DNA of 64,000 nt from the NCBI GenBank assembly GCA_963575745.1, contig CAUYUJ010000292.1:558001-622000 (forward strand). Reading direction: 5' to 3'. The notes beneath the pieces were generated by a model, which was given only the letters and a program-made list of their open reading frames with translations, was not told where the DNA came from and ran no database searches. Both the position numbers and the translations under genes were made by a program. Within the stretch, counting starts at the first letter, position 1; each line of letters starts with the position of its first letter. Below, piece by piece: positions 9,446-40,689 of this stretch. This stretch comes from Prorocentrum cordatum. Taxonomy: Eukaryota.

Positions 9446-9550
9446 TAGTGCCAGGCTCCAGCTTCGCCTCCCGCATCTCGCTCAGCAGCGCCAGCGCCCG
9501 CTGCCACTGCTCGCCCTTCCCGCACGCGCTAATCCCAGCGCTGTAGCTGA
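9446..9550 (-). CDS. PPR block, 1 motif (exactly 105 nt)
   Basis: SYSAGISACGKGEQWQRALALLSEMREAKLEPGT; bounded by a Helitron-like 3' end (9551) and a TCTGTAG 5' end (9445). Expression unproven. Confidence 0.75.
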
Positions 9551-11869
9551 CTGGTGTGAAAACCCGTGGACGATCCACGGCTGCCAGGTCGAGGTGTCTG
9601 ACCCGAACACGCGTGTGTCGCCGACAAGGGTTGCTGCAGGCTCCGGGCTCCGGGACTGATGGCTGTCTTCGAATGTCTTGGGAGGGTCTGGGGCTATCTC
9701 GGAATGGTCCCTGGAAGGTTCTTGTGGCATCGAAAGCTTGCCGCAATCCAGTCTCGCTGCAGCCTCTTGCAGGAGGAGGCGGTGGAGGAGGGTAGCGATA
9801 CTGGAGATGGGGGGAGTGCAGGCTCCCAGAGGACGCCGAGGCAGACGACATACGAGGTCCCCCTTTGTCACCCCTGGAAGGGGGTCTTAGGAGGAAGAGA
9901 GAGCAGTCCAGAGAGAGGGAAGTGCAGGCTCGCAGGCGAGGAAGCCAGGGCGGGAAAGAGAGAGGAGGGTCCCCCTTTGTCACCCCCGATGGCTGGGAGG
10001 GGGCCCACCGCGAGCTCGGGTTTGCCGTGGGCAGCGAGAAGGGGGTGAGGCGCACGAGAGCGAGCATGAGGCCGAGGAGGAAGAGTGTGGCTCTGGAGCG
10101 CGGGCGGTCTCCGGATTCTGTTGGAGGCCTTTGGAGACAGCAAAGGGTGCGGGCGCTGCTGCAGTGGCTCCGAGGTGTCGACATGCCCCCCTCACCGCCC
10201 CGAATCGGCTGTGGGGACCCCAGAGTTGCTGGAGCGTGGATCAAGGGGAGCCAAGGAGCAGGAGGGGGAGGAGGAGGAGGAGGAGGAGGAGGAGGAGGAG
10301 GAGGAGGAGGAGGAGGAGGACGGAGGAGGACGGAGTAGGAGTAGGAGTAGGAGTAGGAGTAGGAGGAGGAGGAGGAGGAGGAGGAGGAGGAGGAGGAGGA
10401 GGACGGATGAGGAGTGGGAGAAGAGAGCCAAACGGGGAGAGGATGCTCGTTGGGTCTTCATATGGGTAAGTAGGTTTGTTGAAGGCTGCTGGGGAGGCAC
10501 AGGGGCGGAGAGCTCTCTTGGGAGCTCCGGCGGAATCATCACAATATCTTGGGAGGGTATGGGGTGTATCGAAATGGCTCAGGTCTTCGTTCGGGGTCCG
10601 CAGCTTTCTTTGGGTGCCGTGGCTGATGGCGCTCTGCTGAAAGCTCCTTGGCAAGTGTCGGAGTCTCTTGGGGAGACTCTGGTGCGTCGGAATGGTCCTG
10701 GGAAGGAGTGGTCCTGGTAAGGTTCTTGGCCCATTGGAAGCTGCGGGCGGCCCATCGTCTGGGCTTTCTTCGGACCCTATTGGAGGCCTCTTGGAGGTCT
10801 TTCCAGAGCCTCGGGGGCGTTTCTGAAGCCACGTTAGAGCGCTCTTGGGCCGTCGTGGGGGCCTGTAGGGACGTCCTAGGGCCATCTGGAGGGGACTGTT
10901 GATGTTGGGAGTCTTGGGACGTCTGGGGGCTATGGTGGATGGTTCGAGCCGTTTTAGGGGCCCGCTTTGGGCCCTCTGGCAGCTCTTGAGGCCTTCTTGA
11001 GCCACTTGGGGGATCTCCTGAGCTGTCTCCGGGGCTTCTCGAGCTGTCCTGGGGCGATGTTGGCGGTCTCAGGCAGGAGCGCCCAGAATCGAATCGATAA
11101 GTCGAATCGGCGATCCAAATGAATCGGATCGGTGGGAATCGGCAGCCGAGTAGGGAAAAGTCGAATCGGCAGACATCGGCAGGCTAGTATGCCTGAAATA
11201 GGAAATTGGAACCCAAATCGGAATCCCATGTCGAATCGAATCGGAATCGGAGGCCATCGAAATCGAATCGAATCGAATCGAAGGAATCGAAACGAGCCCT
11301 GCCTCAGGCCGTCTTGGAGCCCGCGTTGGGACCTGTTGGGGAGCTCCTGGTGCCTTCTTCGGCCTTTTCTTCGGGGCCACCAAGGGCTCTAATTATGAGG
11401 CTGTCTTGAGCTTCTCTTGGGCAATATTCGGGCCCTCTGGGGGGCCGTCTTGGGGTACTTGGCGGGGCCTCCTAGACCGTCTTGGGGCGATCTGGGATGG
11501 CCTTGGAGCAGTCTGGGGCCGTTCTTGGCCCGAAACGGCGAGAACCTGGAAAACCGAATTAACAACCAAAAACATTAATGATTTTGGCCTTGGTGGAATA
11601 TCATCGGGGTCCGATTCGACTGTTTTGGGATGCACCTGGCCCGTCGTCGGGCCGTATTGGGCTGTCACGGGGCTCCGTTCGGGTTCTTTTGGGCCGACCT
11701 CGCGCGCTCCGGAGCGTCTCAGAGCCGTCTGGAACTGACAGAGGCCGTCTGGGACTGCCTATGGGCTTTCTGGAGCCGTCGGAAAGCGCCGTGGCGCTTC
11801 GGGTGCCCGGGGGCAGCTTTATATTTTTCGCCCCTGTTGCACGCGCAACGCCCAGAATTGTAGTACAGA
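9551..11869 (-). mobile_element. Non-autonomous Helitron-like element A
   Basis: Minus strand: A|TCTGTACTAC... to CCGTGGA-TCG-TCCACGG hairpin, spacer, CCAG|T; no TSD; no Rep/helicase ORF. Confidence 0.75.
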
Positions 11870-11974
11870 TAACGTTGGGCGCCAGCTTCACCTCCCACAT
11901 CTCGCTCAACAGTGCGATCGCCCGCTGCCACTGCTCGCCCTTCTCGCACGCGCCGATCCCAGCGTTGTAGCTGA
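11870..11974 (-). CDS. PPR block, 1 motif
   Basis: SYNAGIGACEKGEQWQRAIALLSEMWEVKLAPNV. Confidence 0.75.
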
Positions 11975-11996
11975 TGCCCCTGCAATGTAGTAGAGA

Positions 11997-13359
11997 CTAG
12001 AACTGACCCGTGGACTACCGTCCACGAATGCCAGTCGTCAGCCTGCCCGTGCTGCTGCTCATTGTTTGGTGTGTTGTTTGCTTGATGATTCAGACGGCGT
12101 CCAGAGCAGCGCTAGCAGCATAAGCGGCAGCAGATCCAGGGGCACGGGCCGTAGCAACAACAGCAGCTCTTCTTCCTTTTCCTCCTCCTTCGCCCTTTCT
12201 TCCTCCTCGTACTTGGCTCGTCCTCGTCTTCCGCCACCTCCTCCTCCTCCTGGTCCTCCTCCTGGTCCTCCTCCTCCCCCTCCTCCTCCTCCTCCTCTTC
12301 CTCCTCCTCCTCCTCCTCCTCCTCCTCCTCCTCCTCCTCCTCCTCCTCCCCTCCTCCTCCTCCTCCCCTCCTCCTCCTCCTCCTCCTCCGCCTCCTCCTC
12401 CTCTTCCCAATCGTGCGGTTCCGACTCTGCGGGCAGAAGCACTTCTTACGGAGGACAGCGACGACGGGGAGGAAAAGGTCGCAGAGACAGCGTTCCAAGG
12501 GGGCCGCAGCGGGATCTGACAGCTATTGTGTGCACCCCCCGCAGCGCGGGAGGTGTTAGAAGAAGTGTGGGGTATGGCTTTGTTCCCACGCACCAGCACT
12601 TTCTGGGAGCCAAATCGGAGCAGTTCGGTGGGAGCTGCTGGAGGCCTTCGCGGAGCCAGTGGGGTTTCACTTGTTCCAGTAAGCCGGGGGCTTCTGGGAG
12701 CACGTCAGAGCCGTGTCGAGGGAGCTGCTGGAGGCTTTCTGGGAGCCCCTGGGGATTGTCCCGGAGGCCGTCTTGGAGCCTCTGGGGGATTCTTTTGGGG
12801 GCTCGCTGGCTGTGGGAAGGGCGGGAGTGGGGGGGAGCGCTCCAGAGTTGGCCCTGTTGGGCCTCCCTTGTGGCCGTCTTGGGAGGCTGTTCGGCCGTTT
12901 TGGGAGTCCCCGGAGCCGTCTTGAGGTTCCTCTGGCGAATGCCCCCGAAACCCGTCTTGGAGCCTCCCGGGGGTTTCTTGGAGGCTTGCTGCCGTGGGAG
13001 GGGCGGAAGGGAAGGGAACGCTCCAGAGGTGGCCCTGTTGGGCCTCCCTTGAGGCCGTCTTGGGAAGCTGTTCGGCCGTCTTGGGAGACCCCAGAGCCGT
13101 CTTGAGGGCCTCTGGGACCGTCGAACGATTTGGGAGGCTTCTCGGGATGGGTTGCTTGTCTTTTAGCCGCAGAAGCGATCGTAAGAGGAAAAGCATCAAA
13201 AACCTGGGAAAAGGGCCTTCCGGGGCACTCGCGAGACTCTCCTGGGCCACGACGGCGTCGATCCACGAGCGGGGCCGCCGAGGCGCCGCCGCCGCGGGCC
13301 CGCCGAATGTAAGCAACGTGTCTTTCTGGCACGCGCTGAGCTCGGTAGTGTAGTCTAGA
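11997..13359 (-). mobile_element. Non-autonomous Helitron-like element B (family shared with C, G, L)
   Basis: G|TCTAGACTAC... to CGTGGAC-GGTA-GTCCACG hairpin, 8-nt spacer, CTAG|T. Confidence 0.8.
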
Positions 13360-13464
13360 CGATGTTGGGCTCCACATTCACCTCCTGCATCTCGCTCAGC
13401 AGCGCCAGCGCCCACTGCCACCGCTTGCCCTTCGCGCACGCGCCGATCCCAGCGTTGTAGCTGA
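13360..13464 (-). CDS. PPR block, 1 chimeric motif
   Basis: SYNAGIGAC (as in the 11870 unit) fused to AKGKRWQWALALLSEMQEVNVEPNI (as in the 14853 unit). Confidence 0.75.
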
Positions 13465-13486
13465 TGCCCCTGCAATGTAGTAGAGA

Positions 13487-14852
13487 CTAGAACTGACCCG
13501 TGGACTACCGTCCACGAATGCCAGTCGTCAGTCTGCCCGTGCTGCTGCTCATTGTTTGGTGTGTTGTTTGCTTGATGATTCAGACGGCGTCCAGAGCAGC
13601 GCTAGCAGCATAAGCGGCAGCAGATCCAGGGGCACGGGCCGTAGCAACAACAGCAGCTCTTCTTCCTTTTCCTCCTCCTTCGCCCTTTCTTCCTCCTCGT
13701 ACTTGGCTCGTCCTCGTCTTCCGCCACCTCCTCCTCCTCCTGGTCCTCCTCCTGGTCCTCCTCCTCCCCCTCCTCCTCCTCCTCCTCTTCCTCCTCCTCC
13801 TCCTCCTCCTCCTCCTCCTCCTCCTCCTCCTCCTCCTCCCCTCCTCCTCCTCCTCCCCTCCTCCTCCTCCTCCTCCTCCTCCGCCTCCTCCTCCTCTTCC
13901 CAATCGTGCGGTTCCGACTCTGCGGGCAGAAGCACTTCTTACGGAGGACAGCGACGACGGGGAGGAAAAGGTCGCAGAGACAGCGTTCCAAGGGGGCCGC
14001 AGCGGGATCTGACAGCTATTGTGTGCACCCCCCGCAGCGCGGGAGGTGTTAGAAGAAGTGTGGGGTATGGCTTTGTTCCCACGCACCAGCACTTTCTGGG
14101 AGCCAAATCGGAGCTGTTCGGTGGGAGCTGCTGGAGGCCTTCGCGGAGCCAGTGGGGTTTCACTTGTTCCAGTAAGCCGGGGGCTTCTGGGAGCACGTCA
14201 GAGCCGTGTCGAGGGAGCTGCTGGAGGCTTTCTGGGAGCCCCTGGGGATTGTCCCGGAGGCCGTCTTGGAGCCTCTGGGGGATTCTTTTGGGGGCTCGCT
14301 GGCTGTGGGAAGGGCGGGAGTGGGGGGGAGCGCTCCAGAGTTGGCCCTGTTGGGCCTCCCTTGTGGCCGTCTTGGGAGGCTGTTCGGCCGTTTTGGGAGT
14401 CCCCGGAGCCGTCTTGAGGTTCCTCTGGCGAATGCCCCCGAAACCCGTCTTGGAGCCTCCCGGGGGTTTCTTGGAGGCTTGCTGCCGTGGGAGGGGCGGA
14501 AGGGAAGGGAACGCTCCAGAGGTGGCCCTGTTGGGCCTCCCTTGAGGCCGTCTTGGGAAGCTGTTCGGCCGTCTTGGGAGACCCCAGAGCCGTCTTGAGG
14601 GCCTCTGGGACCGTCGAACGATTTGGGAGGCTTCTCGGGATGGGTTGCTTGTCTTTTAGCCGCAGAAGCGATCGTAAGAGGAAAAGCATCAAAAACATGG
14701 GAAAAGGGCCTTCCGGGGCACTCGCGAGACTCTCCTGGGCCACGACGGCGTCGATCCACGAGCGGGGCCGCCGAGGCGCCGCCGCCGCGGGCCCGCCGAA
14801 TGTAAGCAACGTGTCTTTCTGGCACGCGCTGAGCTCGGTAGTGTAGTCTAGA
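13487..14852 (-). mobile_element. Non-autonomous Helitron-like element C (duplicate of B)
   Basis: Same termini and body as B. Confidence 0.8.
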
Positions 14853-15272
14853 CGATGTTGGGCTCCACATTCACCTCCTGCATCTCGCTCAGCAGCGCCA
14901 GCGCCCACTGCCACCGCTTGCCCTTCGCGCACGCGCTTATCCAAGCGCTGTAGCTGATGACGTCGGGCTCCAGCTTCGCCTCCCGCATCTCGCTCAACTG
15001 CGCCAGCGACCGCTGCCACTGCTCGCCCTTCTTGCTCGCGCTGACCCCAGCATTGTAGCTGATGACGTCGGGCTCCAGCTTCGCCTCCCGCATCTCGCTC
15101 ACCAGCGCCAGCGCCCGCCGCCACTGCTCGCCCTTCTCGCACGCGCTGATCCCAGCGCTGTAGCTAGTGACGTCGGGCTCCAGCTTCGCCTCCCGCATCT
15201 CGCTGACCAGCGCCAGCGCCCGCTGCCACTGATCGCCCTTCTCGCACGCGCTGATCCCAGCATTGTAGCTGA
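14853..15272 (-). CDS. PPR block, 4 tandem motifs (exactly 420 nt)
   Basis: Four in-frame 35-aa repeats of consensus SY[NS]AGISACEKGEQWQRALALLSEMREAKLEPDVI. Confidence 0.85.
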
Positions 15273-17114
15273 CTAGTGTGAACCCGTGGAGAATCCACGG
15301 CCCGCAGGTCCAGGCAGTGGTCCCGAACGCGCACGTGTCGGAAGCACTGGAAGCGTCAAAAGTAATGTGTTTTTGCTGATCGCGCGAGGCCTGGGCGCGA
15401 TTAGCAGAAACACATAGGTTTTCAGACGCAATCAGAGTAAGGGGGCCCGACCGATCTTACAGAGTCCCTGTGCGCGAGAAGTTCGATGTGGGGGGTGGAC
15501 GCGTGGGGGCCAGAGTTGGGCGCTACGTTGGAGGGCCTCGTTTGAGGGCCACGTTGGGGGGTCTCGTCAGGGTGTCATGGCTGGGGCCAACGTTCGCGGC
15601 CCTGCCAGGGGCCATGTTTGGGGGCCGCGTGCGGGGTTCAGGGGCACATGTGACGGTCGCGTTTGAGGGTGTGGGGTTCGGGGGCAGATGTGACGGTCAC
15701 GTTTGAGGGCAATGGTTGGGGGCTGTGTGTGTGTGTGTTGGGGCCACGTTTGGGGGCGCCTGGAGGCTACGCGTGGGGTTGACGTTCGGGGGCCACGCTT
15801 ACTGGGGCGGTAGGGGCGAACTTCGGAGGCTTTGTGTGGGGGGGCCGCCTTTGGGGGTCCCGTTTGGAGGCCGCGCATGGGGCCGACGTGTAAGGGGCCA
15901 CGTCCAGGGGCGATCTCAGAAAGCAGTCGGGGAGCCCCGGGGGCACTGACCTGGAAGCGTGAAGAGGAATGGGTTTTTGCTAATCGCGCTGGGACTGGGC
16001 GCGATCAGCAAACTCAAGGGTTTTCAGGCACCGCCAGAGTGAAGGGGCCACGTTAGCGGGCCCGCGCAGCCTGGTCCTGGGGCCATCTCGGGGTTCTCGG
16101 GCCGTCGAGATGGCCGTCTCGAGAGATCGAAGCCAGCAGAACCGAGAGAGCAGCGGTGAGGCCCCCGATACAGCCAAGGGTGCGGGTGCTGGTATACGTA
16201 GGGCCCCCGAACTGGCTGTAGTGGCCTGCGGGCAAAGTCGCTGCGGGCCTGGGTAATGGGTAAGAGATCTCGCGAATGTTGGTTGGGATCTCATGGCTGG
16301 CCTCTCGGGAGCCTCTGGGAGACAGTTTGGGGGTTTCTTGGTAGCAGTTTGGGGGCGTCTTGGGGCCTCTTGGGCCCTCTTTTGGGGCCTCTTGGGGGTC
16401 TTTTGGGGCGCTTGGCGGCCTCTGGGGGGCCTCTTGGAGCCTCTTTGGGGCGTCCTGGGGCCTCCTGGGGATGTCTTGGGAGCGTCCCGGCGTTTCTTTG
16501 GGGCGTCTTGGGGCTTCCTGGGGGCCTCTTGGGGTGGAGGCCTAATTTTTTCGGTTCCGAGTCCCTGTCTGGGGCCTCTCTTGGTGCCTTCTTGGGGCCC
16601 TCTTGGGCTGTCTTGGGCGACTCCTGGGCCGTCTTGGGGCCCTCTTGGGCCGTCTTGGGGCCGTTCTGAGGCCTCTTGGGCCGTCTCGGAACGGTCTGGG
16701 GGGCCTCTTGGGCGGTCTTGGAGCGTCGGAAAGCAGAAAACGCGAGAAGGCCAGACACATCGAAAACGAAGAAAATCAACGATTTTGGCTTCTGCGGCCC
16801 CTCTTGGAGGTACACTTCGAGCGCTCTAGGGGCCTCGTGGACGCGTCCCGGGCCGTCTTGAAGGCGTCCTGAAGCCATTTTGAGCGTCTCGGATCCACTC
16901 TTGGACCGTCTTGGGCCGTCTTCGGGACCTCCTGAGGCCGTCTTGGGGCGATCTGGGAATCCTGGATCAGTCCGCCAGCGGACCAAGGGCCTCCCGGGCC
17001 CGTCGGGAAGCGGCCCGGATGCTCTCCGAGCGGCCCGCGAGCTCTCTGGGCGGCCCGGGGCGCTGCCACTGCCTGACCTTCTCGCGCGCGCTTCGCCCGG
17101 AATTGTAGTACAGA
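15273..17114 (-). mobile_element. Non-autonomous Helitron-like element D
   Basis: A|TCTGTACTAC... to CCGTGGA-TTC-TCCACGG hairpin, GTTCACA, CTAG|T; 3' end resembles element A. Confidence 0.8.
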
Positions 17115-17335
17115 TGGCGGTGGGCTCCAGCTTCGCCTGGGCCGTCTCCCGCATCTCGCTCAACAGCGCCAGCGCCCGCTGCCACTGCTCGCTCTTCTCG
17201 CACGCGCTTATCCCAGCATTGTAGCTGATGGCGGTGGGCTCCAGCTTCGCCTCCCGCATCTCGCTGAAAAGCGCCAACGCCCGCTGCCACTGCTCGCCCT
17301 TCTCGCACGCGCTGATCCCAGCATTGTAGGAGAGA
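17115..17335 (-). CDS. PPR block, 2 motifs (one with a 3-aa TAQ insertion; first bases altered to TCTCTCCTAC)
   Basis: YNAGISACEKGEQWQRALALFSEMREAKLEPTAISYNAGISACEKSEQWQRALALLSEMRETAQAKLEPTA. Confidence 0.75.
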
Positions 17336-21404: not shown

Positions 21405-21614
21405 TGGCGTTTGGCGACACCTTTGTCTCCCGCATCTCTCTCAGCAGCGCCAGCGCCCGCTGCCACTGTTCGCCCTTCTCGCACGCGCTGATCCCAACGC
21501 TGTAGCTGATGACGTTGGGCGCCACTTTTGTCTCCCGCATCTCGCTCAGCAGTGCCAGCGCCCGCTGCCACTGCCCGCCCTTCTCGCACGCGCTGATCCC
21601 AGAGTTATAACTGA
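21405..21614 (-). CDS. PPR block, 2 motifs (exactly 210 nt)
   Basis: SYNSGISACEKGGQWQRALALLSEMRETKVAPNVISYSVGISACEKGEQWQRALALLREMRETKVSPNA. Confidence 0.8.
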
Positions 21615-27498: not shown

Positions 27499-27539
<41 letters not shown>

Positions 27540-29115: not shown

Positions 29116-29229
29116 GGCACCTAGGCCTTGCGAGCAAAAAGAGCAAAGCGCTCTGGCGCCGACAGGGGAGGAGGAGGAGGAGGAAGAGGAGGAGGAGGAG
29201 GAGGAGAAGAAATACGAAGACGCACGTGT

Positions 29230-30232
<1,003 letters not shown>

Positions 30233-31126: not shown

Positions 31127-31275
31127 CAGTCAACCCGTATCATAAGGATGCGCGGTAAGAATGCAAGGGCCTTGGAGGCCCACGTTAACGTTTTTCGAAC
31201 AAGGATGGGTCGAAGGGGCAAGGATGCACGGGTAGCCTTGGGAAGGTGACCCATCCTTACTATGCGGGTTGCCTG
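31127..31275. mobile_element. Tc1/mariner-type MITE with TA TSD
   Basis: TA|CAGTCAACCCGTATCATAAGGATG ... CATCCTTACTATGCGGGTTGCCTG|TA; related copies at 53972-54144 and ~58085-58250. Confidence 0.85.
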
Positions 31276-31284
31276 TAGTATAGA

Positions 31285-31389
31285 TGACGTCGGGCTCCAG
31301 CTTCGCTTCCCAAATCTCGCTCAGTAACCCCACAGCCCACTGCCACTGATCGCCTTTTTCGCACGCGCTGATCGCAACATTGTAGCTGA
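31285..31389 (-). CDS. PPR block, 1 motif (exactly 105 nt)
   Basis: SYNVAISACEKGDQWQWAVGLLSEIWEAKLEPDV. Confidence 0.75.
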
Positions 31390-32801
31390 CTGGGGCTGAC
31401 CCGTGGACAACCGGCCACGAATGCCAGTTGTCAGAGTGCCCTTGCTGCTGCTCACTGCGTCAGCAGGTTGCGCTGCTTGCTTGATGATTCTGAGGGCGTC
31501 CAGAGCAGCGCCAGCAGCGTCAGCGGAAGCAGATCCAGGCGCACGGGCAGTAGCAACGGCAGTAGCAACAGCAGCAGCTCCTCCTCCTCCTCCTCCTGCT
31601 CCTGCTCCTGTTCCTGCTCCTCCTCCTCCTCCTCCTCCTCCTCCTCCTCCTCCACCCTTTCTTCCTCCTCGTGCTTGGCTCGTCCTCTGCCTCCTCCTCT
31701 TCCTCCTCCTCCTCCCTCTCCTCATCCTCCTCACCGTCGTGCTTGGCCCGTCCTCGTCCTTCGGCTCCTGCTGCTCCTCCTTCTCCTCTTCCTTCTCCTC
31801 TTCCCTCTCGTCATCCTCTCCCCCCTCCAGGAAATCGTGCTGTTCCGACTCCGCGGGCAGGAACGGAGGAGAGCGACGACGGGGAGGAGAAGGAGGAGGC
31901 CAAAGATGATTGGAAGAAGCCGCACCCCACACCTCTTGTGACACGCTCGGTGGGGGAGGGGTCGCAGAAACAGCGTTCCTGGGTAGCCGCAGCTGGATAT
32001 GACAGCTATTTTCTGCAACCCTTCCAGCGCGAGAGTTGTCCCAAGAGGTGTGGGGCATGGCCTTTTCGCATGAGCTGGCAATTTCTGGGAGCCTATCAGA
32101 ACAGTTCGGTGGGAGCTGCTGGAGGCCTTCGAAGAGCCCGTGGGATATCATTTGTTCTAATGAGCTGGGGCCTTCTGGGAGCATGTCAGAGCCGTTTCGA
32201 CGGAGCTGCTGGCAGCTCTCCAGGGGCCTCGTGGAGCGTCCTGGAGGCCGTCTGGGAGCCTCTGGGGGGGCTCCTTGGGGGGCATGCTGGCAATGGGGTG
32301 GGCGGGAGGGGGGGGGGGCGGTGCGCTCCAGAATTGGCCCGGTTGGGCCTCCCTTGGGGCCGTCTTGGGAGACTGTTCAGCCGTATGGGGGAGTCTCCGG
32401 AGCCGTCTTGAGGATCTTTGGGGCGGTCGCAGGGGCTCTCCTGGGAGCTCCCTGGGTGCCCTCTGGACGATTTGGGGGACTTCTCGGGGTCGGTTGGGCG
32501 TCTTTTGGCCGCAAAAGCGATCGTAAGAGCAAGTATATCAACAACACCTAGAAAACATGTCAATCGTTTTACGTCCTCGTGGCCCTCGGAGGCCAGCTGG
32601 GAGCCTGCCAGAGCCTGGTGGGGGCTTTCTCGCGCCGCCTGGGAGCCCTCTTGCAGTGCAGAGGAGCGCTCTGGGGGCATTCCGGGGCACTCGCGGGGCT
32701 CTCCTGGGCCATGACGGCGTCGCAACGACCGAGGCCGCGGTGGCGCCGCCGCCGACGCGGGCCTGGCGGGCGCAATCAATGTGTCCTTCCGGTAGTATAG
32801 A
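31390..32801 (-). mobile_element. Non-autonomous Helitron-like element G (B family)
   Basis: T|TCTATACTAC... to CGTGGCC-GGTT-GTCCACG, GGTCAGCC, CCAG|T; body collinear with B/C but diverged. Confidence 0.8.
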
Positions 32802-33011
32802 AGACGTCGGGTTCCAACTGCGCGTTCCGCGTCTCGCTAAGCAGCGCCAACGCCCGCTGCCACTGTCCGCCTCTCTCGCACGCGCTGATCGCAGCGGTGT
32901 AGCTAACGACGTTGGGTCCCACCTTCGCCTCCCACATATCGCTCAGCAGCGCAAGAGTCCACTGCCACTGCTCGTCCTTCGAACACGCGCTGATCCCACC
33001 GCAGTAGCTGA
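32802..33011 (-). CDS. PPR block, 2 motifs (exactly 210 nt)
   Basis: SYCGGISACSKDEQWQWTLALLSDMWEAKVGPNVVSYTAAISACERGGQWQRALALLSETRNAQLEPDV. Confidence 0.8.
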
Positions 33012-35275
33012 CTAGGGCTGACCCGTGGACTACTCCGACGAAATCAGCACGAACTGTCATGTGGTGGTGGACATGTTGCCGAAAGCCAAGAAGATACCGC
33101 GTGTGGCTCGCATTTCGCTCTCCGCGAATGCCACTGCGTGCTGCTACTCGCTACCGCTGCTGCAGAGATTTGCTGATGGCGGTTCCGCTTAGTACGTGCT
33201 GCTGCCCGTTGCTTGCAGCTGCTGTGTGCTGTGGATGTGCGCTCCCGCCGCGGCTGCCCGCTTCGCGCTGCTGCCGCTCGCTGCTGCTGCCTGTATGCTG
33301 CAGGGCGATGCGTCTCGTTACTTCAGCGTCCTGACCCAACCTGCTGCCAAGAGGGGATCGAACAAGCGAGAAGCGATGGGCGATCAACGAAGGGTGAGAA
33401 GGGACGATAATTGTGGGAGAGGATTTGGGTGACCCAAAGAGGGGTCCAGCTGAAAAGGGGTGGTGCAATAGGTTTGGGGCAATTGTATTGCAAATGTATT
33501 GCGCCGGAAAATTGTATTGCATTGTATTGCAAGTCATGTGTTGCACGCGAATATGCAGCAATACATTCGCGCCACGGAATGTATTGCACGCACGGAATGT
33601 ATTGCAACCCCACAAACCTATTGCACCAAATCTATGGCACCACCCCCTTGTCGCTGGACCCCCTCTTGGGTCAACCCGATGAGGAGCGTCGACCTCGCAG
33701 AGGTTCGTCGTCCTCGCGAACCTCTGGGGGCTGTTTCCGGGCTCCGGGGCCACCGAGCATCGATTCGGGGGCAGAGACCTGCGCGGACAGACCCCCCCAG
33801 GGTCCAGGGGGCAACGATTCTGCCGATCTGGACGGGGCGTTGGTCCTGAGGCTCGAGGAGTCGGTGGCGAGCGTTTTTTTTTATTCGGCGTTTCGACATT
33901 GGGCGGAAGGGGGGGGAGGGGAGGGGGGTCTGGCTCCGGACCTCTGCTTCGTGCGGCTATTTGCAAGAGTGCGTCCATTATGGGGGAGGCTCCACCTGCT
34001 CGAAACAGGCACCCAAAACTGACAAGATCTACTCCATGGGGGGGGGAGGGGGGGGGGCGAGGGCCCGCGCCGATCGGCAGAATAATACATAAAAAACGCT
34101 CACATGTCTGCTGATTATTTGCTTAGACTGCTTGATGCTAGCGCCGTCGCAAACAAGTTATCTGTTTGCGTAGGGCGGTGCTGGCTTTGCTGCTTTCTTG
34201 CTTGCCTGCTTGCTGGCGTGCTGCTACTGATTGCTGCTGCGTGCTTCGCTGATTCGCCGTAGTGAGGCTCTCCTGGGCTGCATCTAGACCTTCTCATGTC
34301 CTCTTTGAGGCTACCTCGGCCACCTTGGAGCCCGGATGGGCCTTCGGGGGATGAAGGGGGGCTGCGGGAGGGAGCGTCTTGGGCCGCCGCGGGACGATCT
34401 CGAGCCGCCTTGCGGCCAAGGCTGAAAATTGAGAAGCGCCCGTGCGCCTTGCTTTCAACGATGGTCCATCGTGGCTGCGGCCGTCCGAGGAGGTCGGAGC
34501 ATGCGCGCGGGCTGCGGGGGCCCGCGGGAAGGCACAGGGCGCTGCGGAGCAGGCCCCCGGTGGCCTGCGCTGCGGGAACTCTCTCCGGGGAAACCTCCCC
34601 GACGAGGCGTCCAGTCAGACCGGAGCCGCTCCAACGATGGCAGGAACGAAGGAAACGCCTGGGTGCCGAGTTTCTGGGTGGCCGGTGCGGCCCCAGAGCG
34701 CTCTGCGGAAGCTGCTGTCGAACACCTGTTGGAGGCGGTTGTGGGCTTGGAGGCGGATTTGGGGGCCGGCTTTGAGGCTTCTCTCGGGGTCCTGATCTGG
34801 ACCTGCTGGGGGCATGCTGAGGTTGTCTGGGAGGCCTCTCGGGGGCCTGCTGGCGGTCTCGGTGGTCATCTTGGGACGGGGGGTGCGGCATGTCAGGTCG
34901 AGTGCCCCTCTCCCCTTGGGCCCTCTGCCGTCTTTGGGGCTGCCTGGGCGGTCTTGGGACCCTCTTGGGAATTCTCGGGGGCCCTGCTGGGGGTCCGTTG
35001 GGCCACGTTGGGCAATCCCGGGGGCCCCTTGCGCCGTGCTGGAGCGTCGGAAGCCTGCAAAAGCGGGAACACCAAAATCAGCGAAACAACAAAGCGGAGA
35101 TCACTGATTTTTGGCCCCTCGGGATCCTCTCGAGGGGCCTCTTGGAGCCCCCTTGGGCCGCGTTGAGGCCATGCTGGGCCGTCCGAAAGCCGTATTCGCG
35201 ACCCGCCTGGCGCGATTGTGGCCACTTGGCGCTGCCACCCTTCTGGCACGCGCCGCCCTGGCCAGATGGGGTAAA
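33012..35275 (-). mobile_element. Non-autonomous Helitron-like element H (degenerate ends)
   Basis: 3' ...GTAGTCCACGGGTCAGCCCTAG|T with one hairpin arm damaged; 5' A|TTTAC followed by PPR-like sequence shared with the 5' end of F. Confidence 0.6.
33427..33677. mobile_element. MITE with ~45-bp imperfect TIRs
   Basis: GGGTGACCCAAAGAGGGGTCCAGC..AAAGGGGTGGTGCAATAG versus reverse complement of CTATGGCACCACCCCCTTGTCGCTGGACCCCCTCTTGGGTCAACCC. Confidence 0.8.
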
Positions 35276-35380
35276 TGACATCGGGCTCCACCTTCGCCTC
35301 CTGCATTTCGCTCAGCAGTGCCAGCGCCGGCTGCCACTGCTCGCCCCTTTCGCACGCGCTGATCCCAGCATTGTAGATGA
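35276..35380 (-). CDS. PPR block, 1 motif (exactly 105 nt)
   Basis: IYNAGISACERGEQWQPALALLSEMQEAKVEPDV. Confidence 0.75.
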
Positions 35381-38300
35381 CTAGGGCTGACCCGTGGACT
35401 CTGTCCACGTCATCTGGCCGAAAATATTCTCGGGGCGGCGGCGGGGATGCTGCCGAAAGGATATCGACATGGCGGTCAGCCACTCGGCTGCGAGGGGGCC
35501 GCTGGGGGCCCTCTTGGGCTTTTGTCGATGCTCCGAGCCTGGTGTCTTGCTCTCCCCCCAGCGCTGCCGCCTCCGCTGCTGCCCTCATCGTCGCCGTCCT
35601 AGCCAGGTCGTCGTCGTCTTCATTCCCGCTCTGTCATCGTCCGCGCGATATTCGCTTGCGTCCTTAGTCCTCCTCCCCTCCTCTTCCCCCCTCGTCCTCC
35701 CCAGTATACCTGCTCATCCTGCTCCTACTATTCCTTCTCCCCTTCCTTCTCCTCTTCCCCACAGGCCTGCAGACAAGACGCCCTCTCGAAGTCCAGACGA
35801 CGATGACGACGACAACAACAACGACGACGACGACGATGCGACGGAGCCGACGAACACGATCACAACGACGACGACGCCAAGTCCGTGTGACAGCGCGGAT
35901 CCGGAGCAGCAACGTCATGCACCGTGAAGATGGAGCGGGGTGGCCCCGGACAATTGCTGAACATTTCTACCCAAGGGGGCGGTCTGTTCACAAGTTATCC
36001 AGGTCCTCCTCCTCCTCCTCTCCTCCTCCTCCTCCTCCTCCTCTCCTCCTCTCCTCCTCCTCCTCCTCCTCCTCCTCCTCCTCCTCCTCCTCCTCCTCTA
36101 CTCATTCTCCTCCTCCTCCTCCTCCTCCTCCTCCTGTTCCTGGGTCCTTCATCTGCTCGATCTCCGATCGCCAATCGTGGACGCCAAAACGACGCCCCCC
36201 AGAAGGCGAGCATCCAAGGCCCTCGGAGCGTCCAGATCGGGTCTTCTGGGCCTGCGATCGCGTCTCGCCTCTCGTCCGCCCCCCTCTCACGGAGGCAAAT
36301 TCGAAACCACTTAGGGCGTCATGGGGGCCGGCTGCGTGGGGCCTGCGATACGGCTCTCGCCTGTCGTCCGCCCCCCCCTCTTGGAAGCAACTTTGAAGCC
36401 ACTGAGGGCCTCTTGGGGGCCGCTTGGGGGACTGACTCTTCCTCTTGGGGGTTCTTTTCGGTTTCCTGGCAGCCTCTAGGGGCCCTCTTGGGCCGTCTTG
36501 TGTGCCTTCTGGGTCGTCTTGGGGCCGTCTGGGGCCGTCTTTGGCTGTCTCTGGCGCCTCTTGGGCCGTCTTGGGGCCGTTCTGGGCCGTCTTGGGCGGC
36601 TCTTGGGGCTGTCTTGGGTGCCTCTTGGGTCGGCTTGGGACCCTCTTGGACCGTCCTGACGCCGTCTTGGAACGTCTTGGGGCCCTCACGGGGGTATCTG
36701 GGCCCGCAATCCGCAACGGTGCCTGCGGCACGTTGAGACGTGGAAGACTGCCAAGGGCTGCCTGGCAGGGTTTCTGTAGTCTTATGAAGGACCACCCACC
36801 CGCTCTGGTGACACCCAGCCGACTGCACCACCCCTACTCCTGGGGGGTCCCCGGGCGGCCATGGCGCCTCCCTGGGGCTCCCCAATGCTTCCATTACGGC
36901 CCAGGAGGACCCCAAAACGGTCCAAGAGGGCCCCGAGTTGCCGAACGATCGGTCGAAGACGCCCAAGACGGCCTCAAGATGGCCAAGAGGCCTCCAAGAC
37001 GCCCCGAGAGGCCTCCAAGAGGCCTTCCGAGAGGGCCCAAACAGGCACAAATCGTTGATTGTCCTTAGGTCTTTGAAAGTTTTGGCGTTCTGGCCTTTTT
37101 GGCTTTCGGACTCTCCAAGGCGGACCAATAGGCCCCCAAGACCACCCCAAAACGGCCCAAGAGGCCTCCAAGACGGCCCAAGAGCGTCCCAAGGCGGCCT
37201 CAAAACGGCCCCCAAAGGGGCCCGAGAGAGGAACCGAGCACCTCCGAGCCTGCCTTCTGGCCCAAGAGGCCCCCAGGAGTCCTCAAGCTGCGCCCAAGAG
37301 GCCCCCAGAGGCCCCGAAACTGCCCCCAAGATGCCTCGAACCTGCCATCAAGAGGTCCCCGAGCGGCCTCCCACGAGATCCCAGCGGAGATCGAATATGC
37401 CTCACACCCACAGCCCAGACACGGCGGCAGGACTTGCCGCAGGGAGCTGATTACATACACTTGAAACATCTTCGAGTAGCACCCTGACATGCCTGAACTT
37501 GCAACGTTCTAGGGCCGCTCGCGGGAACCTCCTGGCCCGTCCTGGGTGTCCCCCTCGCCTATACACAAACAACCCCGTTGGCGGCCGCTTTCGGGGGTCC
37601 ATGTCGGCCCATCAGGCCACCGTGCCTGGATTGAGTGTCAGAGTCCTCAGGCATGCTTCTTGGGGCCACTTAGGAGCGCTCTCGACGCTCTCAAGGGCCT
37701 CATGGGGACAGTTTAGGGGCCTCGTGGGAGCCTCGCGGGGGCCTCGTGGATTATCGTTGGGGCCTCTCGGAGGCCTCTTGGTGCCTCCTGAATGCACCTT
37801 CGGGCCGAGGGCTCGAAATGCCCGTTCTGGTTCCCCGTCTGGGCCTCTTGGGCAGCCCGTCTGGGCTCTTGGAGCGGTCTTGCGGGCCTCTTGGGCAGCC
37901 TCAGAGGCGTGGTCGGCTGTCTACGGGCCCTCTGGGGCCGCTTCGGGGCGCTCTCGGACGCCTCTTGGGCCGTGCCGTGGCGATCCTGGGACCCTCTCGC
38001 GCCGTCCTGGAGCGTCGGGAAGCCGAAACAGGCAACATCCTTCGCGCACCCCAGGGACAGCAGTGCGTGCGTTGCCTCTGGGGGTGTCCTCCTGGGAAGG
38101 ACTCTTGGCTGACCATCGCTCGGACGTCCATTTCCTGTGCTTTTTTCGGATTCGTGCGTGTTTTTTTGGGGGGGGGCGAAATGATCAAGCATGCTCCTCG
38201 ATGGTCCTCGCCGATGGAAAATGCACACGTCCGAGCGATGCCAAGCCAAGGAACAGTAGTGCGTGCGCTGCCTCTGGGGGGGTCCTCCTGGGAAGGACTC

Positions 38301-38539
38301 TCGGAGGCCTCTTGGGGGGCGTCCTGGCTGGCAGTGAGCCGCCTCCACGCCCGCTCCCCGGGCACCACGCGAGCCCGCTCCGGGCATCGGCGGGTGCCGC
38401 CAAAGGGGACCCTGCGGGGCCGCCGCGGAGCGTCCCGCGGGGCTCCGCGGAGAGGGCGCGGGGCGCCCCGGGCGGGGGACCTCCGAGCCCCGGGGGCCCG
38501 CCTCGCGCGCAGAGGCTCTCCCGCACTGCCTGGAGGGCT
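35381..38539 (-). mobile_element. Helitron-like element I; 3' end clear, 5' end not recognisable
   Basis: CGTGGAC-AGA-GTCCACG, GGTCAGCC, CTAG|T at 35381-35409; the upstream PPR breaks at the same register (GACGCCA|) but is not followed by TC. Confidence 0.5.
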
Positions 38540-38644
38540 GGCGTCGGGCTCCAGCTGCGCCTGCCGCACCTCGCCCAGCAGCGCCAGGGCCCGCTGCCAC
38601 TGCCCGCCCTTCCCGCACGCACCGATCCCGGCGTTGTAGCTGAC
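38540..38644 (-). CDS. PPR block, 1 motif
   Basis: VSYNAGIGACGKGGQWQRALALLGEVRQAQLEPDA. Confidence 0.7.
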
Positions 38645-38659
38645 CTTCGCGTATAGACT

Positions 38660-40442
38660 CTAGGGCTGACTCGTGGACTCCGTCCGGGGCATCTTTCTGG
38701 CACGACTCTCGGAGGAACGGCGGAGACTTTGACGAACATCTTTGAGCACGGCTGCAGCCGGGGCGGCGGCAGCGAGACCGCGCCCTCGCGTCCGAGCTCT
38801 CGCAACGCTCCCGCAGCTGGGCCCCGGCGCGCGGCTCCTTCGCCTCCCTCCTGGTGAAGGCAGTGTTGAAGTCCCTCGGGGATGTGCGTCAAACCCAGAC
38901 CCCCGACGTAATGATTTTTTCATTACGTCGACCCCCAGAGGTCTGGTCCCTTTCCCCATGACCGGCTTTGCATCCTGAGTCGTTTTTTGACGCTTCCGAG
39001 GCCCGGTGAGAGCCCCTGGAGGCCGAAAAGTAGGAAAAACATCCCGTCATGATTTTTTCATTACTCGAGGGGGTCTGGGAAGTCGAAGCCCCTCTCAGGC
39101 GTCTCAGGAGCGCCCAGGGACGGGCTCGGGCGGCCCTCGGGGAAAGCCAGCGGGAGCGCCTAGCAGGCTCGCAGGGATCTCCAGGGAGGGTCCAAGAGAG
39201 CTTCGAGAGGCAGATTTAATGCGACCTTAACAAAGACCGCTGTTGGGTCGGACGTGCTCCGCTGCGTTGGGGAGACCGTTTCGTTGGAGTTCTGGTGATG
39301 GCGAGGCTCTCCTGGGCGTGTCAGGAGCGCATGGTCCCCTCTCTTGGAAGCAGTTTCGAAGCCTCTTTGGGCCTCTTTGGGGGGTTGAGGGTCTCTCAGG
39401 TCCTCTTGTGGGCCTCTTCGGGACCTTGTTGGGCCCTCTTGGGCCGTCTGGTCTCCTCTTGGGCCGTCTTGGGGACACGTTCAGCGCTCCGTACGTCATC
39501 CTCACTGTGTCCATCACCTGGGCGGCCTCTCGGAAACACGCCCACGGAATCCAGGGCCACCCAAATATCTCGCCGCGCCGCGCCGTGCGAGCCCGATTAG
39601 CTTCGCGCTCTCGGGCCCGCACCCACGGAGGAAAGCAAAGCTCCCTATGCGGCCACTGATGGCCGGCGCTTCCTTCTCCTTGGGAACCGTTTAGGGGCCT
39701 CTCGCGGTTTCGTTCCGCCCTCCTGGGGGACTTGGGGCCCCCTTGGACCGTCTTGCGGCATCCTTGGGGCCTCTTGGGGCCCTGTTGGGCCGTCTTGGGT
39801 GCCCCTTGGGCCGTCTTGGGGCATTCTTGGACGCCTCCGGGGCCGGCTTGGTGCCGTCTTGGGGCCGTCTTGGGCCGTCTTTGGCCGCTCTTGGGGCTGC
39901 CTTGGGTGACTCTTGGGCCGTCGTGGGCGCTCAGGAGCGGTTCTGGGGTCGTCTTGGGCCGTCCTGGGGCCGTCTTGGGCCGTCTCGGGGCCCGGGGCCC
40001 TCCTGGGGCGCTCCTGAGGCGTCATGGGACGATCTTTGGGGCGTGAATTTCCCTCTTGGATGCTTTGTAAACGAAAAAGACGGGAATTATGAACATGTAC
40101 GTTTTCCCTAGGAGTGGGGACGATTTTTGCTTGTGCGGGCTCTTTCGGGACTCTTCTTGGAGCCCACTTGGAGCGTTTTGGAAGCCTCTTGGGCCGTCTG
40201 GGGGCTATCTTGGGCGTCTGCGAACGCTCTTGGACCGTCTCAGAGGCCCTCTTGGACCGTCTTGTGCCGCTCTTGGGGGCCCTGGGGTCGTCTCGGAGCG
40301 CCCTTGGGCCTCCTGGAAGCACGCCGGGGCCTGCTGGGGTGCTAAGGCTCGCAGGAGCCCGCAGGGGCCGCCGGGGCGCCGGTACACCTAGCCCCGACTC
40401 CCGCCCCTATCGCACGCGCGTGCGCCTGCAATGTAGTAGAGA
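38660..40442 (-). mobile_element. Non-autonomous Helitron-like element J
   Basis: A|TCTCTACTACATTGCAGG... to GGAC-GGA-GTCC-ACGAGTCAGCC-CTAG. Confidence 0.7.
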
Positions 40443-40689
40443 TGACGTCGGGCTCCAGCTTCGCCTCCCACATCTCACTCAGCACTGACAGCGCGTGTTG
40501 CCACTGTCCAATTTTTCCGCATGCGCTGACAATCGCAACGTAGTGGCTTGGGACAAGTTGCACACCTAATCGAATTCCTTCCCGGAGCAACCGCAATGCT
40601 GCGCTCCATTGTTTTGTCCGACCGCACTTCTTGATCGACACTTCGAAGGAAACAGCGCCTTCTCGAGACCCTCGACCGATGTCCAGCAT
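40443..40689 (-). CDS. N-terminal head of the PPR gene (ATG + 2 divergent PPR motifs)
   Basis: MLDIGRGSREGAVSFEVSIKKCGRTKQWSAALRLLREGIRLGVQLVPSHYVAIVSACGKIGQWQHALSVLSEMWEAKLEPDV; ATG about 50 nt downstream of a spliced-leader relic. Confidence 0.8.

What the first reader, a model, noticed from the sequence alone, without database searches (positions are those of the whole stretch)
9446..40689. Inter-element coding blocks are whole PPR specificity modules (n x 105 nt): possible TALE-like shuffling
Seen: block lengths are 105 (9446-9550), 420 (14853-15272), 210 (21405-21614), 105 (31285-31389), 210 (32802-33011) and 105 (35276-35380), and none has a stop. Four junctions (11975, 13465, 17335, 38645) carry extra bases, some frame-breaking. 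Position 5/35 pairs in gene order after the head: ND, ND, CN, TD, ND, NN, SN, NT, NT, ND, SD, ND, SN, NN, NN, SG. Established: residues 5 and 35 set P-type PPR base specificity (ND=U, TD/SD=G, SN/TN=A, NN/NT=pyrimidine). Inference: the cut in codon 2 keeps each 5/35 pair together, so block duplication or movement would rewrite an RNA-binding code one base at a time.
Basis: partly seen in the sequence, partly recalled or inferred. Interest (0 to 1): 0.78.

Follow-up and report, generated by a model that had tools for sequence, protein, structure and literature searches.

The report
PPR repeats split by Helitron-like spacers
A repeat gene for an RNA-binding (PPR) protein of the dinoflagellate Prorocentrum cordatum is interrupted ten times, always at the same point of the repeat, by DNA whose ends look like rolling-circle (Helitron) transposons; that is why the coding pieces are whole repeats, and nothing shows that the pieces are shuffled as modules.

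Summary
On the minus strand a head exon (ATG at 40689) is followed by 16 PPR units of the SACEK type. They lie in blocks of 105, 210 or 420 nt with no stop.

The block lengths are not a separate signal. Every spacer sits at the same A|TC site in codon 2 of the 105-nt unit, so any distance between spacers must be n x 105.

The spacers have Helitron-type ends. They begin TCT(A/C/G)TACTAC, the same first 10 bases as maize Helitrons. They end with a short hairpin, 11-13 bases, then CTAG, flanked by A and T.

The only datable rearrangement is a 1.49-kb tandem duplication. Its crossover lies inside a PPR unit (nt 22-30), so position 5 and position 35 of the new unit come from different parents. This is the opposite of module-wise shuffling.

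The public annotation uses only 4 of the 10 spacers as introns, in two separate models. One model runs out of frame and the other is fused to a retrotransposon ORF. RNA contigs could not be assigned to this locus.

This scan had already noted the same Helitron-like/PPR system on other DNA of this genome.

The parts
40443..40689 (-). Head exon: ATG at 40689, two degenerate PPR-like units, ending on the host A before the first spacer
   Evidence: Open frame from 40689. 100% match to residues 1-82 of the annotated P. cordatum protein P0170. At least 25 annotated P. cordatum paralogues share this head at 49-85% identity.
38644..40442 (-). Spacer 1, Helitron-like. It starts TCTCTACTAC. It ends with hairpin and CTAG at 38660, followed by 16 extra bases (38644-38659) that contain a TCTATAC fragment of a 5' end
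   Evidence: Used as an intron in P0170, with a GT donor 4 nt before the border and an AAG|G acceptor inside the extra bases.
38539..38643 (-). PPR unit (5/35 = ND)
35381..38538 (-). Spacer 2. Its 5' end is missing (starts GCCC); its 3' end has the hairpin and CTAG
   Evidence: Annotated as an exact GC..AG intron in P0170.
35276..35380 (-). PPR unit (ND)
33012..35275 (-). Spacer 3. Decayed 5' end (TTTACCCC); 3' end GTCCACGGGTCAGCCCTAG
   Evidence: P0170 splices it 4 nt short, so the next unit is read out of frame up to a stop.
32802..33011 (-). Block of two PPR units (CN, TD)
   Evidence: No protein of 122 aa or more in the database exceeds 65% identity to it.
31390..32801 (-). Spacer 4, family A (1.4 kb)
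   Evidence: 72-86% identical, in alignable stretches, to the other family A copies. Ends.
31285..31389 (-). PPR unit (ND)
21615..31284 (-). Spacer 5 (9.7 kb), composite: satellites, long microsatellites and a 100-N gap at 24048-24147. It starts TCTATACTAC and ends ..GACCACGGGTTAGCCATAG
21405..21614 (-). Block of two PPR units (NN, SN)
17336..21404 (-). Spacer 6 (4.1 kb); a middle part is related to family A
17115..17335 (-). Block of two PPR units (NT, NT), 221 nt: 2 extra bases (TC) at its start and an in-frame 9-nt insertion in the second unit
   Evidence: The annotated protein P0015 starts at a Met inside the first unit.
15273..17114 (-). Spacer 7, end type B (TCTGTACTACAATTC.. / ..CCGTGGATTCTCCACGGGTTCACACTAG)
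   Evidence: It is the one intron of P0015 in the array, with a GT donor 3 nt inside the spacer, which gives the junction ..AIFSYN...
14853..15272 (-). Block of four PPR units (ND, SD, ND, SN)
11975..14852 (-). Tandem duplication. Two family A spacers (13465-14852 and 11975-13359, 99.6% identical), each ending with a 22-nt fragment of a 5' end, enclose the chimeric unit 13360-13464. The crossover lies in unit nt 22-30, at 13435-13443
11870..11974 (-). PPR unit (NN)
9551..11869 (-). Spacer 10, end type B
9446..9550 (-). Last PPR unit (SG). It is followed at 9445 by another TCTGTAG.. 5' end for which no 3' end was found in the window
46379..47872 (-). Neighbouring decayed paralogous array. It holds a head with an in-frame stop (47627-47872, 77% identical to the main head), a family A spacer (46535-47626), one full unit (46430-46534) and one internally deleted unit (46379-46429)

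Best explanation
What it is. The region is one member of a Prorocentrum cordatum-specific family of P-class PPR genes of the SACEK type. It has a conserved head exon and then tandem 35-residue units. The array is interrupted ten times by non-coding spacers of 1.4-9.7 kb that are non-autonomous, Helitron-like elements or their descendants.

Where the spacers sit. Every spacer lies at the same place: between the first base (usually A) and the TC of codon 2 of a unit. Because that site recurs every 105 nt, the coding pieces between spacers are necessarily 105, 210 or 420 nt, and each carries complete 5/35 residue pairs.

How the array changes (shown). It changes by ordinary unequal recombination and slippage between the 105-nt units themselves. 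One recent event carried a whole 1.4-kb spacer along and produced a chimeric unit.

How the spacers are tolerated (inferred). They may act as poor introns. Their terminal AG can serve as a splice acceptor, and chance GT or GC dinucleotides at or near their 5' end can serve as donors. That changes unit length by -1, 0 or +1 residue, or breaks the frame.

Present state of the locus (inferred). It is most likely partly broken. The units themselves are intact, but four junctions cannot be joined in frame at the element borders, the 3' end runs into a retrotransposon-like ORF, and the neighbouring paralogous array is clearly dead.
For: Same site. 12 of 12 spacer starts follow the first base of codon 2; that base is A in 9, G in 2 (one duplicated event) and T in 1. 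10 of 12 spacers begin with TC. 11 of 11 spacer ends finish in AG (CTAG 8, CCAG 2, ATAG 1), and T follows in 10 of 11.

Helitron-type ends. The first 10 bases TCTATACTAC and TCTCTACTAC equal those printed for the maize Helitrons Hel1-4 and HelA2, which also end in CTAG (PMC10095026, Table 3, passages seen). A 6-7 bp hairpin 11-13 nt from the end is the minimum-energy fold in 6 of 10 ends folded.

Ends conserved, interiors not. The last 32 nt average 77% pairwise identity, against 49-56% further in and 54% for shuffled sequence. The two end types A and B pair a particular 5' end with a particular 3' end.

Non-autonomous. Of 110 ORFs scanned, none matches a Rep, helicase or other transposase family; only PPR families reach significance.

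Array dynamics. The unit at 13464 is a chimera (4 of 4 and 16 of 16 informative sites), flanked by two spacers 99.6% identical to each other.

Identity of the locus. P0015 and P0170 are annotated P. cordatum proteins, 100% identical to parts of the window and lying on one 662,579-bp contig.

Use as introns. 4 of the 10 spacers are introns in those two models. The junction signature IF[S/I]Y, expected from a GT donor 3 nt inside the spacer, occurs in 8 of 31 annotated P. cordatum relatives and in 0 of 138 other proteins fetched.

Decay. Head 2 carries an in-frame stop. 26 of 53 annotated relatives contain at least one PPR unit translated out of frame.
Against: Mobility is not shown. All 9 motif hits in the window, and the one relevant metagenome contig (L002), lie in front of a PPR unit, so none was seen in a non-PPR context. 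No empty site was proven, and no autonomous partner was found.

The hairpin is decayed in 4 of 10 ends. The host base before the spacer is not A in 3 of 12 cases.

The first ~45 nt of the spacers resemble the start of a PPR unit (profile positions 5-41, E = 0.014 to 1.8e-5 for the better copies). The 5' border could therefore be read instead as a frame-shifted partial unit.

RNA gave no locus-specific answer. Three RNA-like runs cover only the blocks, but with thousands of 50-90-nt contigs from the whole family. The two contig joints that skip exactly one spacer have only 28 nt on one side and imply non-canonical TC..CA borders, so they may come from uninterrupted paralogues.

The gene models are predictions and may not reflect real splicing. 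If cells remove the spacers exactly, the locus could be an intact 16-unit gene.
Confidence: 0.68

Rival explanations
1. One ancestral intron, no targeting. A single Helitron-derived (or other) insertion became an intron in codon 2 of one PPR unit. It then multiplied passively when unit-plus-intron segments were duplicated in tandem and between loci. Blocks of 2-4 units arose by unit slippage or intron loss.
For: Every copy seen lies in a PPR context. All spacer starts share the same +2-nt difference from a true unit start, which points to one origin. The window holds a proven duplication of unit plus spacer. The units that follow the two type-B spacers are 89% identical, above the roughly 81% average.
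Against: The interiors of most spacers cannot be aligned, while the last 32 nt stay at 77% identity. The two paralogous heads (77% identical) are followed by different spacers, family A in one case and an unrelated 1.8-kb spacer in the other. Units next to the family A copies are no more alike than average, at 78-84%. Three independent 3' ends are followed by a 2-22-nt fragment of a 5' end, a head-to-tail junction typical of rolling-circle elements.
Confidence: 0.2
2. Blocks of n whole units, bounded by the elements, are moved or duplicated as cassettes (for example by Helitron read-through transduction), so that the RNA-binding code is rewritten module by module, as in TALE arrays.
For: The geometry allows it: the cut keeps positions 5 and 35 of each unit on one piece. 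Head-to-tail end fragments show that elements once sat in tandem. The (5,35) pair is in the top 5% of position pairs for non-synonymous variation (27th of 561).
Against: No block recurs elsewhere in the window. The one datable event has its crossover inside a unit and splits position 5 from position 35. Nearest relatives of units are their neighbours within a block. The n x 105 lengths need no such process. Comparison of unit order with paralogous loci was not carried out.
Confidence: 0.07
3. Dead target satellite. The whole array is a pseudogene and the PPR units merely survive as a recent relic.
For: Four junctions break the frame if joined at the element borders. The annotated model P0170 runs out of frame after two units, and P0015 is fused to a retrotransposon-like ORF. 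The neighbouring array has an in-frame stop and a truncated unit. No database protein matches the block 33011-32802.
Against: No unit carries a stop, where 5.3 of 15 would be expected under neutral change from the consensus (P about 0.001). There is no frame-breaking indel in about 1.8 kb of units. Pooled dN/dS is 0.55, not 1. This constraint may, however, predate the insertions.
Confidence: 0.4

Closest known systems
Non-autonomous canonical Helitrons (for example maize Hel1-4 and HelA2; PMC10095026, passages and Table 3 seen)
   Same: They share the 5' start TCTATACTAC or TCTCTACTAC, the 3' CTAG, a short hairpin about 11-13 nt before the end, flanking A and T, no target-site duplication, no coding capacity, and head-to-tail end junctions. 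The maize paper also reports the terminal CTAG used as a 3' splice site.
   Different: Here every copy seen sits at one codon of a coding repeat, whereas ordinary Helitrons use any A|T. The 5' region continues with a stretch resembling the PPR unit. No RepHel partner and no proof of movement were found.
Introners, including the roughly 1% classed as Helitron-derived (PMC12130899, abstract and passages seen); introner elements reported in P. cordatum introns (PMC10666404, passages seen)
   Same: Mobile DNA sits inside genes and is treated as introns. The P. cordatum paper reports long introns (mean 4,709 nt) enriched in repeat elements.
   Different: Introners bring or create good splice sites and spread through many genes. 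Here the donor is improvised (GT or GC at -4, 0 or +3), only 4 of 10 spacers are annotated as introns, and all copies lie in one gene family. The P. cordatum paper detects introners by inverted repeats, and the word Helitron does not occur in its main text.
SACEK-type P-class PPR proteins of core dinoflagellates (review PMC12787238, section 11 passages seen)
   Same: 35-residue units carry Ser-Ala-Cys-Glu-Lys at positions 9-13 and a conserved Trp downstream. They are abundant in P. cordatum, where 536 PPR proteins are reported, and occur in tandemly duplicated genes.
   Different: The passages I read in the review say nothing about gene structure or about elements between the repeats.
TALE repeat arrays of Xanthomonas (recalled, no call)
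   Same: Tandem repeats of about 102-105 nt, each reading one nucleotide through two residues. The arrays evolve by recombination between repeats.
   Different: TALE repeats are contiguous and recombine through their own homology, with no spacer elements needed. The one event seen here also went through repeat homology, not through the elements.
Site-specific elements in repeated genes, such as R1 and R2 in rDNA (recalled, no call)
   Same: A mobile element family occupies one fixed position of a tandemly repeated host sequence.
   Different: R1 and R2 are retrotransposons with their own sequence-specific endonuclease. Here the class is rolling-circle-like and the basis of site choice is unknown.

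Membership tests
Helitron (canonical, non-autonomous) | 5' end begins TC, with the conserved TCT.TACTA start | tested here: met
   10 of 12 spacers begin with TC. 9 matches to TCTATACTACAAT with at most 2 mismatches, against 0.11 expected. The first 10 nt equal the maize Helitron ends printed in PMC10095026.
Helitron (canonical, non-autonomous) | 3' end CTRR, preceded by a short GC-rich hairpin about 10-12 nt upstream | tested here: met
   CTAG in 8 of 11 ends (CCAG in 2, ATAG in 1). A 6-7 bp hairpin is the minimum-energy fold in 6 of 10 ends folded and is decayed in 4. The hairpin lies 11-13 nt from the end.
Helitron (canonical, non-autonomous) | Insertion between host A and T without target-site duplication | tested here: met
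   The 5' flank is A in 9 of 12 cases and the 3' flank is T in 10 of 11. Uninterrupted unit junctions inside blocks read ..GTC ATC AGC.., which is the same sequence without any duplication.
Helitron (canonical, non-autonomous) | A RepHel-encoding autonomous partner with the same ends | tested here: not met
   None in this window: 110 ORFs of 130 aa or more were scanned against Pfam with no Rep or helicase hit. The rest of the genome could not be searched because no genome is held.
Helitron (canonical, non-autonomous) | Evidence of transposition: copies in unrelated contexts, or matching empty sites | tested here: inconclusive
   All copies lie in a PPR context. Paralogous heads carry different spacers. 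RNA contigs that join units exactly may be empty-site paralogues but are too short to tell.
P-class PPR protein (SACEK type) | Tandem 35-residue PPR motifs recognised by family profiles, with SACEK at positions 9-13 | tested here: met
   PPR_2 E = 9e-24, PPR_3 E = 4.7e-18 and PPR E = 3.2e-14 on the four-unit ORF. At positions 9-13 the commonest residues are S (14 of 17 units), A (17), C (15), E (10) and K (14). The motif is described in PMC12787238.
Spliceosomal intron / introner | GT, GC or GA donor and AG acceptor at borders that keep the frame | tested here: inconclusive
   Exact removal at the element borders would need TC..AG. In-frame GT/GC/GA..AG solutions exist near all 10 junctions (4-40 each), but that is expected by chance with these loose rules. 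The splice statistics for P. cordatum come from PMC10666404.
Spliceosomal intron / introner | Transcripts that lack the element | tested here: inconclusive
   4 of 10 spacers are introns in the annotated models. RNA-run contigs cover blocks but not spacers, yet they come from the whole family. The exact joints have only 28-nt sides.
TALE-like modular shuffling | Rearrangement breakpoints at module borders, and the same module in new contexts | tested here: not met
   The breakpoint of the only recent event lies at unit nt 22-30. No block recurs within the window. Comparison with paralogous loci was not done.

The most novel reading that the evidence does not exclude
A Helitron family homes to one codon of the PPR repeat because its own 5' end (TCT.TACTACAAT..) imitates the start of the repeat (TCAGCTACAAT..). 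It is tolerated there because its terminal CTAG supplies a splice acceptor. By occasionally reading through its 3' end it could carry the next n x 105-nt block to another PPR gene. A transposon would then be both intron-maker and shuffler of an RNA-recognition code.
Probability: 0.1. Interest if true: 0.8.

Novelty: new variant of a known kind. Interest (0 to 1): 0.45.

Why it matters
PPR proteins read RNA one base per repeat, and dinoflagellates have hundreds of them. Knowing how their arrays grow and change bears on how organelle RNA processing evolves.

The window shows that in P. cordatum a Helitron-like element family occupies one fixed codon of the repeat, and that gene models treat some copies as introns.

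If the site choice is real targeting, it would be a rare case of a rolling-circle element with a coding-repeat target, and a concrete route from transposon to intron.

For the finding as written, the value is corrective: the n x 105 pattern is a by-product of the fixed site, and the array's visible evolution runs through the repeats, not the elements.

My searches found no paper that links Helitrons with PPR genes in dinoflagellates (the word Helitron is absent from the main text of PMC10666404). Supplements of these papers were not read.

Tried and rejected
Whole genome. None is held for this window, so no genome-wide census of the ends and no search for a RepHel partner was possible.

RNA evidence. 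One search for runs and one laying of four runs.
- X7, X10 and X17 cover only the PPR blocks, with 2,430-5,133 short contigs each, mostly at 95-99% likeness. These come from the whole family.
- Spacer bins mostly have depth 0 in these three runs, while X1 (DNA-like) covers them.
- Joints 11972>13358 (X10, X17) and 13462>14851 (X7) skip exactly one spacer. Each has only 28 nt on the shorter side and implies non-canonical borders.
- Many other joints, with 15-31 foreign letters between the two sides, are clearly paralogue contigs.
- 91 joints and 202 rows of letters between joints were not shown to me.
- Result: no verdict on whether this locus is transcribed or spliced.

Metagenome scan for the 19-nt 3' end. 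It returned 2 loci: one bacterial chance match (L001) and one Prorocentrum-like contig, again with CTAG|TCACCTAC.. followed by PPR units (L002). No non-PPR context was found.

Earlier-findings look-up by spacer sequence: nothing.

Splice-site enumeration. In-frame solutions are too numerous to be informative.

Self-splicing introns or other known RNAs. 0 Rfam matches at gathering score and 0 tRNAs.

TSD-like origin of the PPR-like 5' stretch. Rejected, because all copies share the same +2-nt difference from a true unit start.

Unit order in paralogues.

Weak 5' signal. The 5' stretch is only weakly above background in global alignment (61% against 55-57%).

Full report
**What the window is.**
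The DNA is GC-rich (51-70% in 2-kb bins) and full of satellites and microsatellites (192 tandem-repeat rows). No whole genome is held for it. Two annotated proteins named Prorocentrum cordatum, P0015 and P0170, match parts of the window at 100% identity and come from one 662,579-bp contig. I therefore take the window to be from that dinoflagellate. Earlier notes of this scan pointed the same way.

**Checking the observation.**
It found 28 matches, all on the minus strand: 18 full-length units and 10 partial ones.
- The six named blocks are 105, 420, 210, 105, 210 and 105 nt. Each has one frame that reads as typical PPR units without a stop.
- Pfam confirms PPR (PPR_2 E = 9e-24 on the four-unit ORF). 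The units carry the SACEK signature described for core dinoflagellates (PMC12787238, section 11 passages).
- The four junctions with extra bases are real: 16 nt at 38644-38659, 2 nt at 17334-17335, and 22 nt at both 13465-13486 and 11975-11996. Each would break the frame if it stayed in the message.

**What the spacers are.**
Read on the minus strand, 10 of 12 spacers begin with TC, usually as TCT(A/C/G)TACTAC. All 11 ends seen finish in AG: CTAG in 8, CCAG in 2 and ATAG in 1. Each end is preceded by GTGGAC-N3-4-GTCCAC and then 11-13 bases.
- The host base before a spacer is A in 9 of 12 cases. The base after it is T in 10 of 11.
- The 19-nt 3' motif occurs 9 times against 0.05 expected. The 13-nt 5' motif occurs 9 times against 0.11 expected. 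All copies lie on the minus strand at block borders.
- Folded as DNA, 6 of 10 ends give the hairpin as the best structure (z from -2.0 to -4.9). In the other 4 it has decayed.
- These are the marks of canonical Helitrons. The first ten bases are the same as those printed for maize Hel1-4 (TCTATACTAC) and HelA2 (TCTCTACTAC), which also end in CTAG (PMC10095026, Table 3).
- The last 32 nt of the spacers average 77% pairwise identity. The next 32-nt windows average 49-56%, and shuffled sequence gives 54%.
- Interiors are mostly unalignable apart from shared GGGCC(G/T)TCTT-type satellites.
- One 1.0-1.4-kb family (A) fills four spacers: 47626-46535, 32801-31390, 14852-13465 and 13359-11975. A second end type (B) pairs TCTGTACTACAATTC.. 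with ..TTCACAC(T/C)AG in two spacers.
- None of 110 ORFs matches a Rep, helicase or transposase family. There are no Rfam families and no tRNAs.
- The first ~45 nt of most spacers resemble PPR unit positions 5-41, with a shared 2-nt length difference at the start.
- Three independent 3' ends are followed by a 2-22-nt piece of a 5' end before the PPR unit. This is a head-to-tail junction.

**Why the blocks are n x 105.**
All spacers sit between base 1 and bases 2-3 of codon 2 of a unit. Inside multi-unit blocks the same junction reads through uninterrupted (..GTC ATC AGC TAC..). With one fixed site per 105-nt period, any two neighbouring spacers are n x 105 apart. The lengths therefore carry no information beyond "same site". 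What needs explaining is the same-site rule. It fits either site-specific insertion or passive duplication of unit plus spacer.

**Is there shuffling of blocks?**
The window offers one datable event. Spacers 14852-13465 and 13359-11975 are 99.6% identical over 1,389 nt. The unit between them is a clean chimera. At unit nt 10-21 it matches unit 11974 at 4 of 4 informative sites. At nt 31-105 it matches unit 14957 at 16 of 16 sites.
- The duplication therefore arose by unequal crossover between two PPR units, at nt 22-30 (13435-13443), and dragged a spacer along.
- Position 5 of the new unit comes from one parent and position 35 from the other.
- Elsewhere, the closest relatives of units are their neighbours within a block: 93, 92 and 90% within 15272-14958, and 88% within 21614-21405, against roughly 81% overall. 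That is plain unit slippage.
- I found no block repeated in another context in the window.
- I did not complete a comparison of unit order with paralogous genes, so exchange between loci is untested.

**Selection.**
Pooled over 17 units, pS = 0.25, pN = 0.149 and dN/dS = 0.55.
- No unit has a stop. Random mutation of the consensus by the observed number of differences (3-17 per unit) gives 5.3 of 15 units with a stop, and no stop at all in only 0.1% of trials.
- The only indel inside units is an in-frame 9-nt insertion.
- The units therefore diverged under constraint, but this may predate the spacers.
- Positions 5 and 35 have pN 0.26 and 0.33, against a mean of 0.139 for the rest. The pair ranks 27th of 561. 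Positions 1 and 12 (0.37), 30 (0.31) and 28 (0.30) are as variable.

**Are the blocks joined?**
The annotation gives two separate models.
- P0170 (172 aa) runs from the ATG at 40689 through three spacers. The junctions are head|unit as ..EPD|VSY.. (GT donor 4 nt before the border, AAG|G acceptor inside the 16 extra bases), unit|unit exactly (GC..AG), and then a junction 4 nt short. After that last junction, unit 33011 is read out of frame until a stop.
- P0015 (1,082 aa) starts at a Met inside unit 17331 and removes spacer 17111-15273 with a GT donor 3 nt inside the element (..AIFSYN..). It reads the four-unit block and then jumps into the long ORF at 4028-9010. That ORF has only a weak reverse-transcriptase match (E = 0.031, below Pfam's cut-off).
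- In total, 4 of 10 spacers are annotated introns. Units 32906, 31389, 21614, 21509, 13464, 11974 and 9550 are in neither model.
- No database protein of 122 aa or more exceeds 65% identity to block 33011-32802 (62 hits among 77 candidates).
- Across annotated relatives, spacing between units is 35 residues 65 times and 36 residues 12 times.
- The IF[S/I]Y junction occurs in 8 of 31 P. cordatum proteins and in 0 of 138 others.
- 26 of 53 relatives contain at least one unit translated out of frame.
- P. cordatum gene models allow GT, GC and GA donors (24.7, 51.4 and 23.8%). 79.7% of acceptors are AGG (PMC10666404, Table 2 passage). An exact TC..AG removal could therefore not have been annotated even if it occurs.
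- The RNA-run contigs did not settle the matter (details under Tried and rejected).

**Neighbourhood.**
A second, smaller array lies upstream at 47872-46379. It has a paralogous head with an in-frame stop (77% identical to the main head), a family A spacer, one full unit and one internally deleted unit. It shows that such arrays decay here. The two heads carry different spacers, which is easier to explain by separate insertions than by co-duplication.

**Verdict.**
The "whole modules" geometry is true but trivial given the fixed site. The proposed TALE-like shuffling has no support in this window, and the one event that can be read contradicts it. The interesting core is the Helitron-like family confined to one codon of a PPR repeat and half-used as introns. 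This scan had already noted it on other pieces of this genome (e1-7625268, e1-7625270). I could not find it in the papers searched.

Noticed in passing
window 4028-9010 (-): A 1,661-aa open frame lies directly downstream of the array. Pfam gives only a weak reverse-transcriptase match (RVT_1 E = 0.031, below cut-off) and zinc-finger hints. The public model P0015 fuses it to PPR exons, so that model is probably a chimera of a gene and a retrotransposon.
   Followed up: partly
window 9380-9445 (-): After the last PPR unit, another Helitron-like 5' end (TCTGTAGATAC..) starts at 9445. It is followed about 45 nt later by CGTGGAC, one half of the usual hairpin, and then by the retrotransposon-like region. 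No matching 3' end was found in the window.
   Followed up: partly
window 46379-47872 (-): A decayed paralogous mini-array: a head with an in-frame TAG, a family A spacer, one full unit, and one unit with an internal deletion followed by a stop.
   Followed up: yes
window 16350-16720, 19180-19700, 20915-21100, 36480-36690, 39730-40030 (+) and 36956-37360, 44700-46160 (opposite orientation): Satellites with periods of 10-11, 21 and 32 nt, based on GGGGCC(T/G)TCTT, recur in most spacers in both orientations. They also occur in the metagenome contig L002. In the DNA-like run X1 they give very high contig depth.
   Followed up: no
window 40943-42803: A 1.9-kb array of a 10-nt unit (TGCAAAGCAA, about 187 copies at 65% match) lies between the two PPR arrays.
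   Followed up: no
window 29295-30237 and 23804-24504: Inside the 9.7-kb spacer there is a very long (GTA)n microsatellite (about 304 copies) and CACG/CACGCACA arrays that flank the 100-N assembly gap at 24048-24147.
   Followed up: no
annotated P. cordatum proteins P0027, P0173, P0181 and others: Many public gene models of this PPR family contain stretches such as ..QRWDQRVREGRAVAAG.., which are PPR units read in the wrong frame (26 of 53 models checked). The family's annotation is unreliable at the unit junctions.
   Followed up: partly
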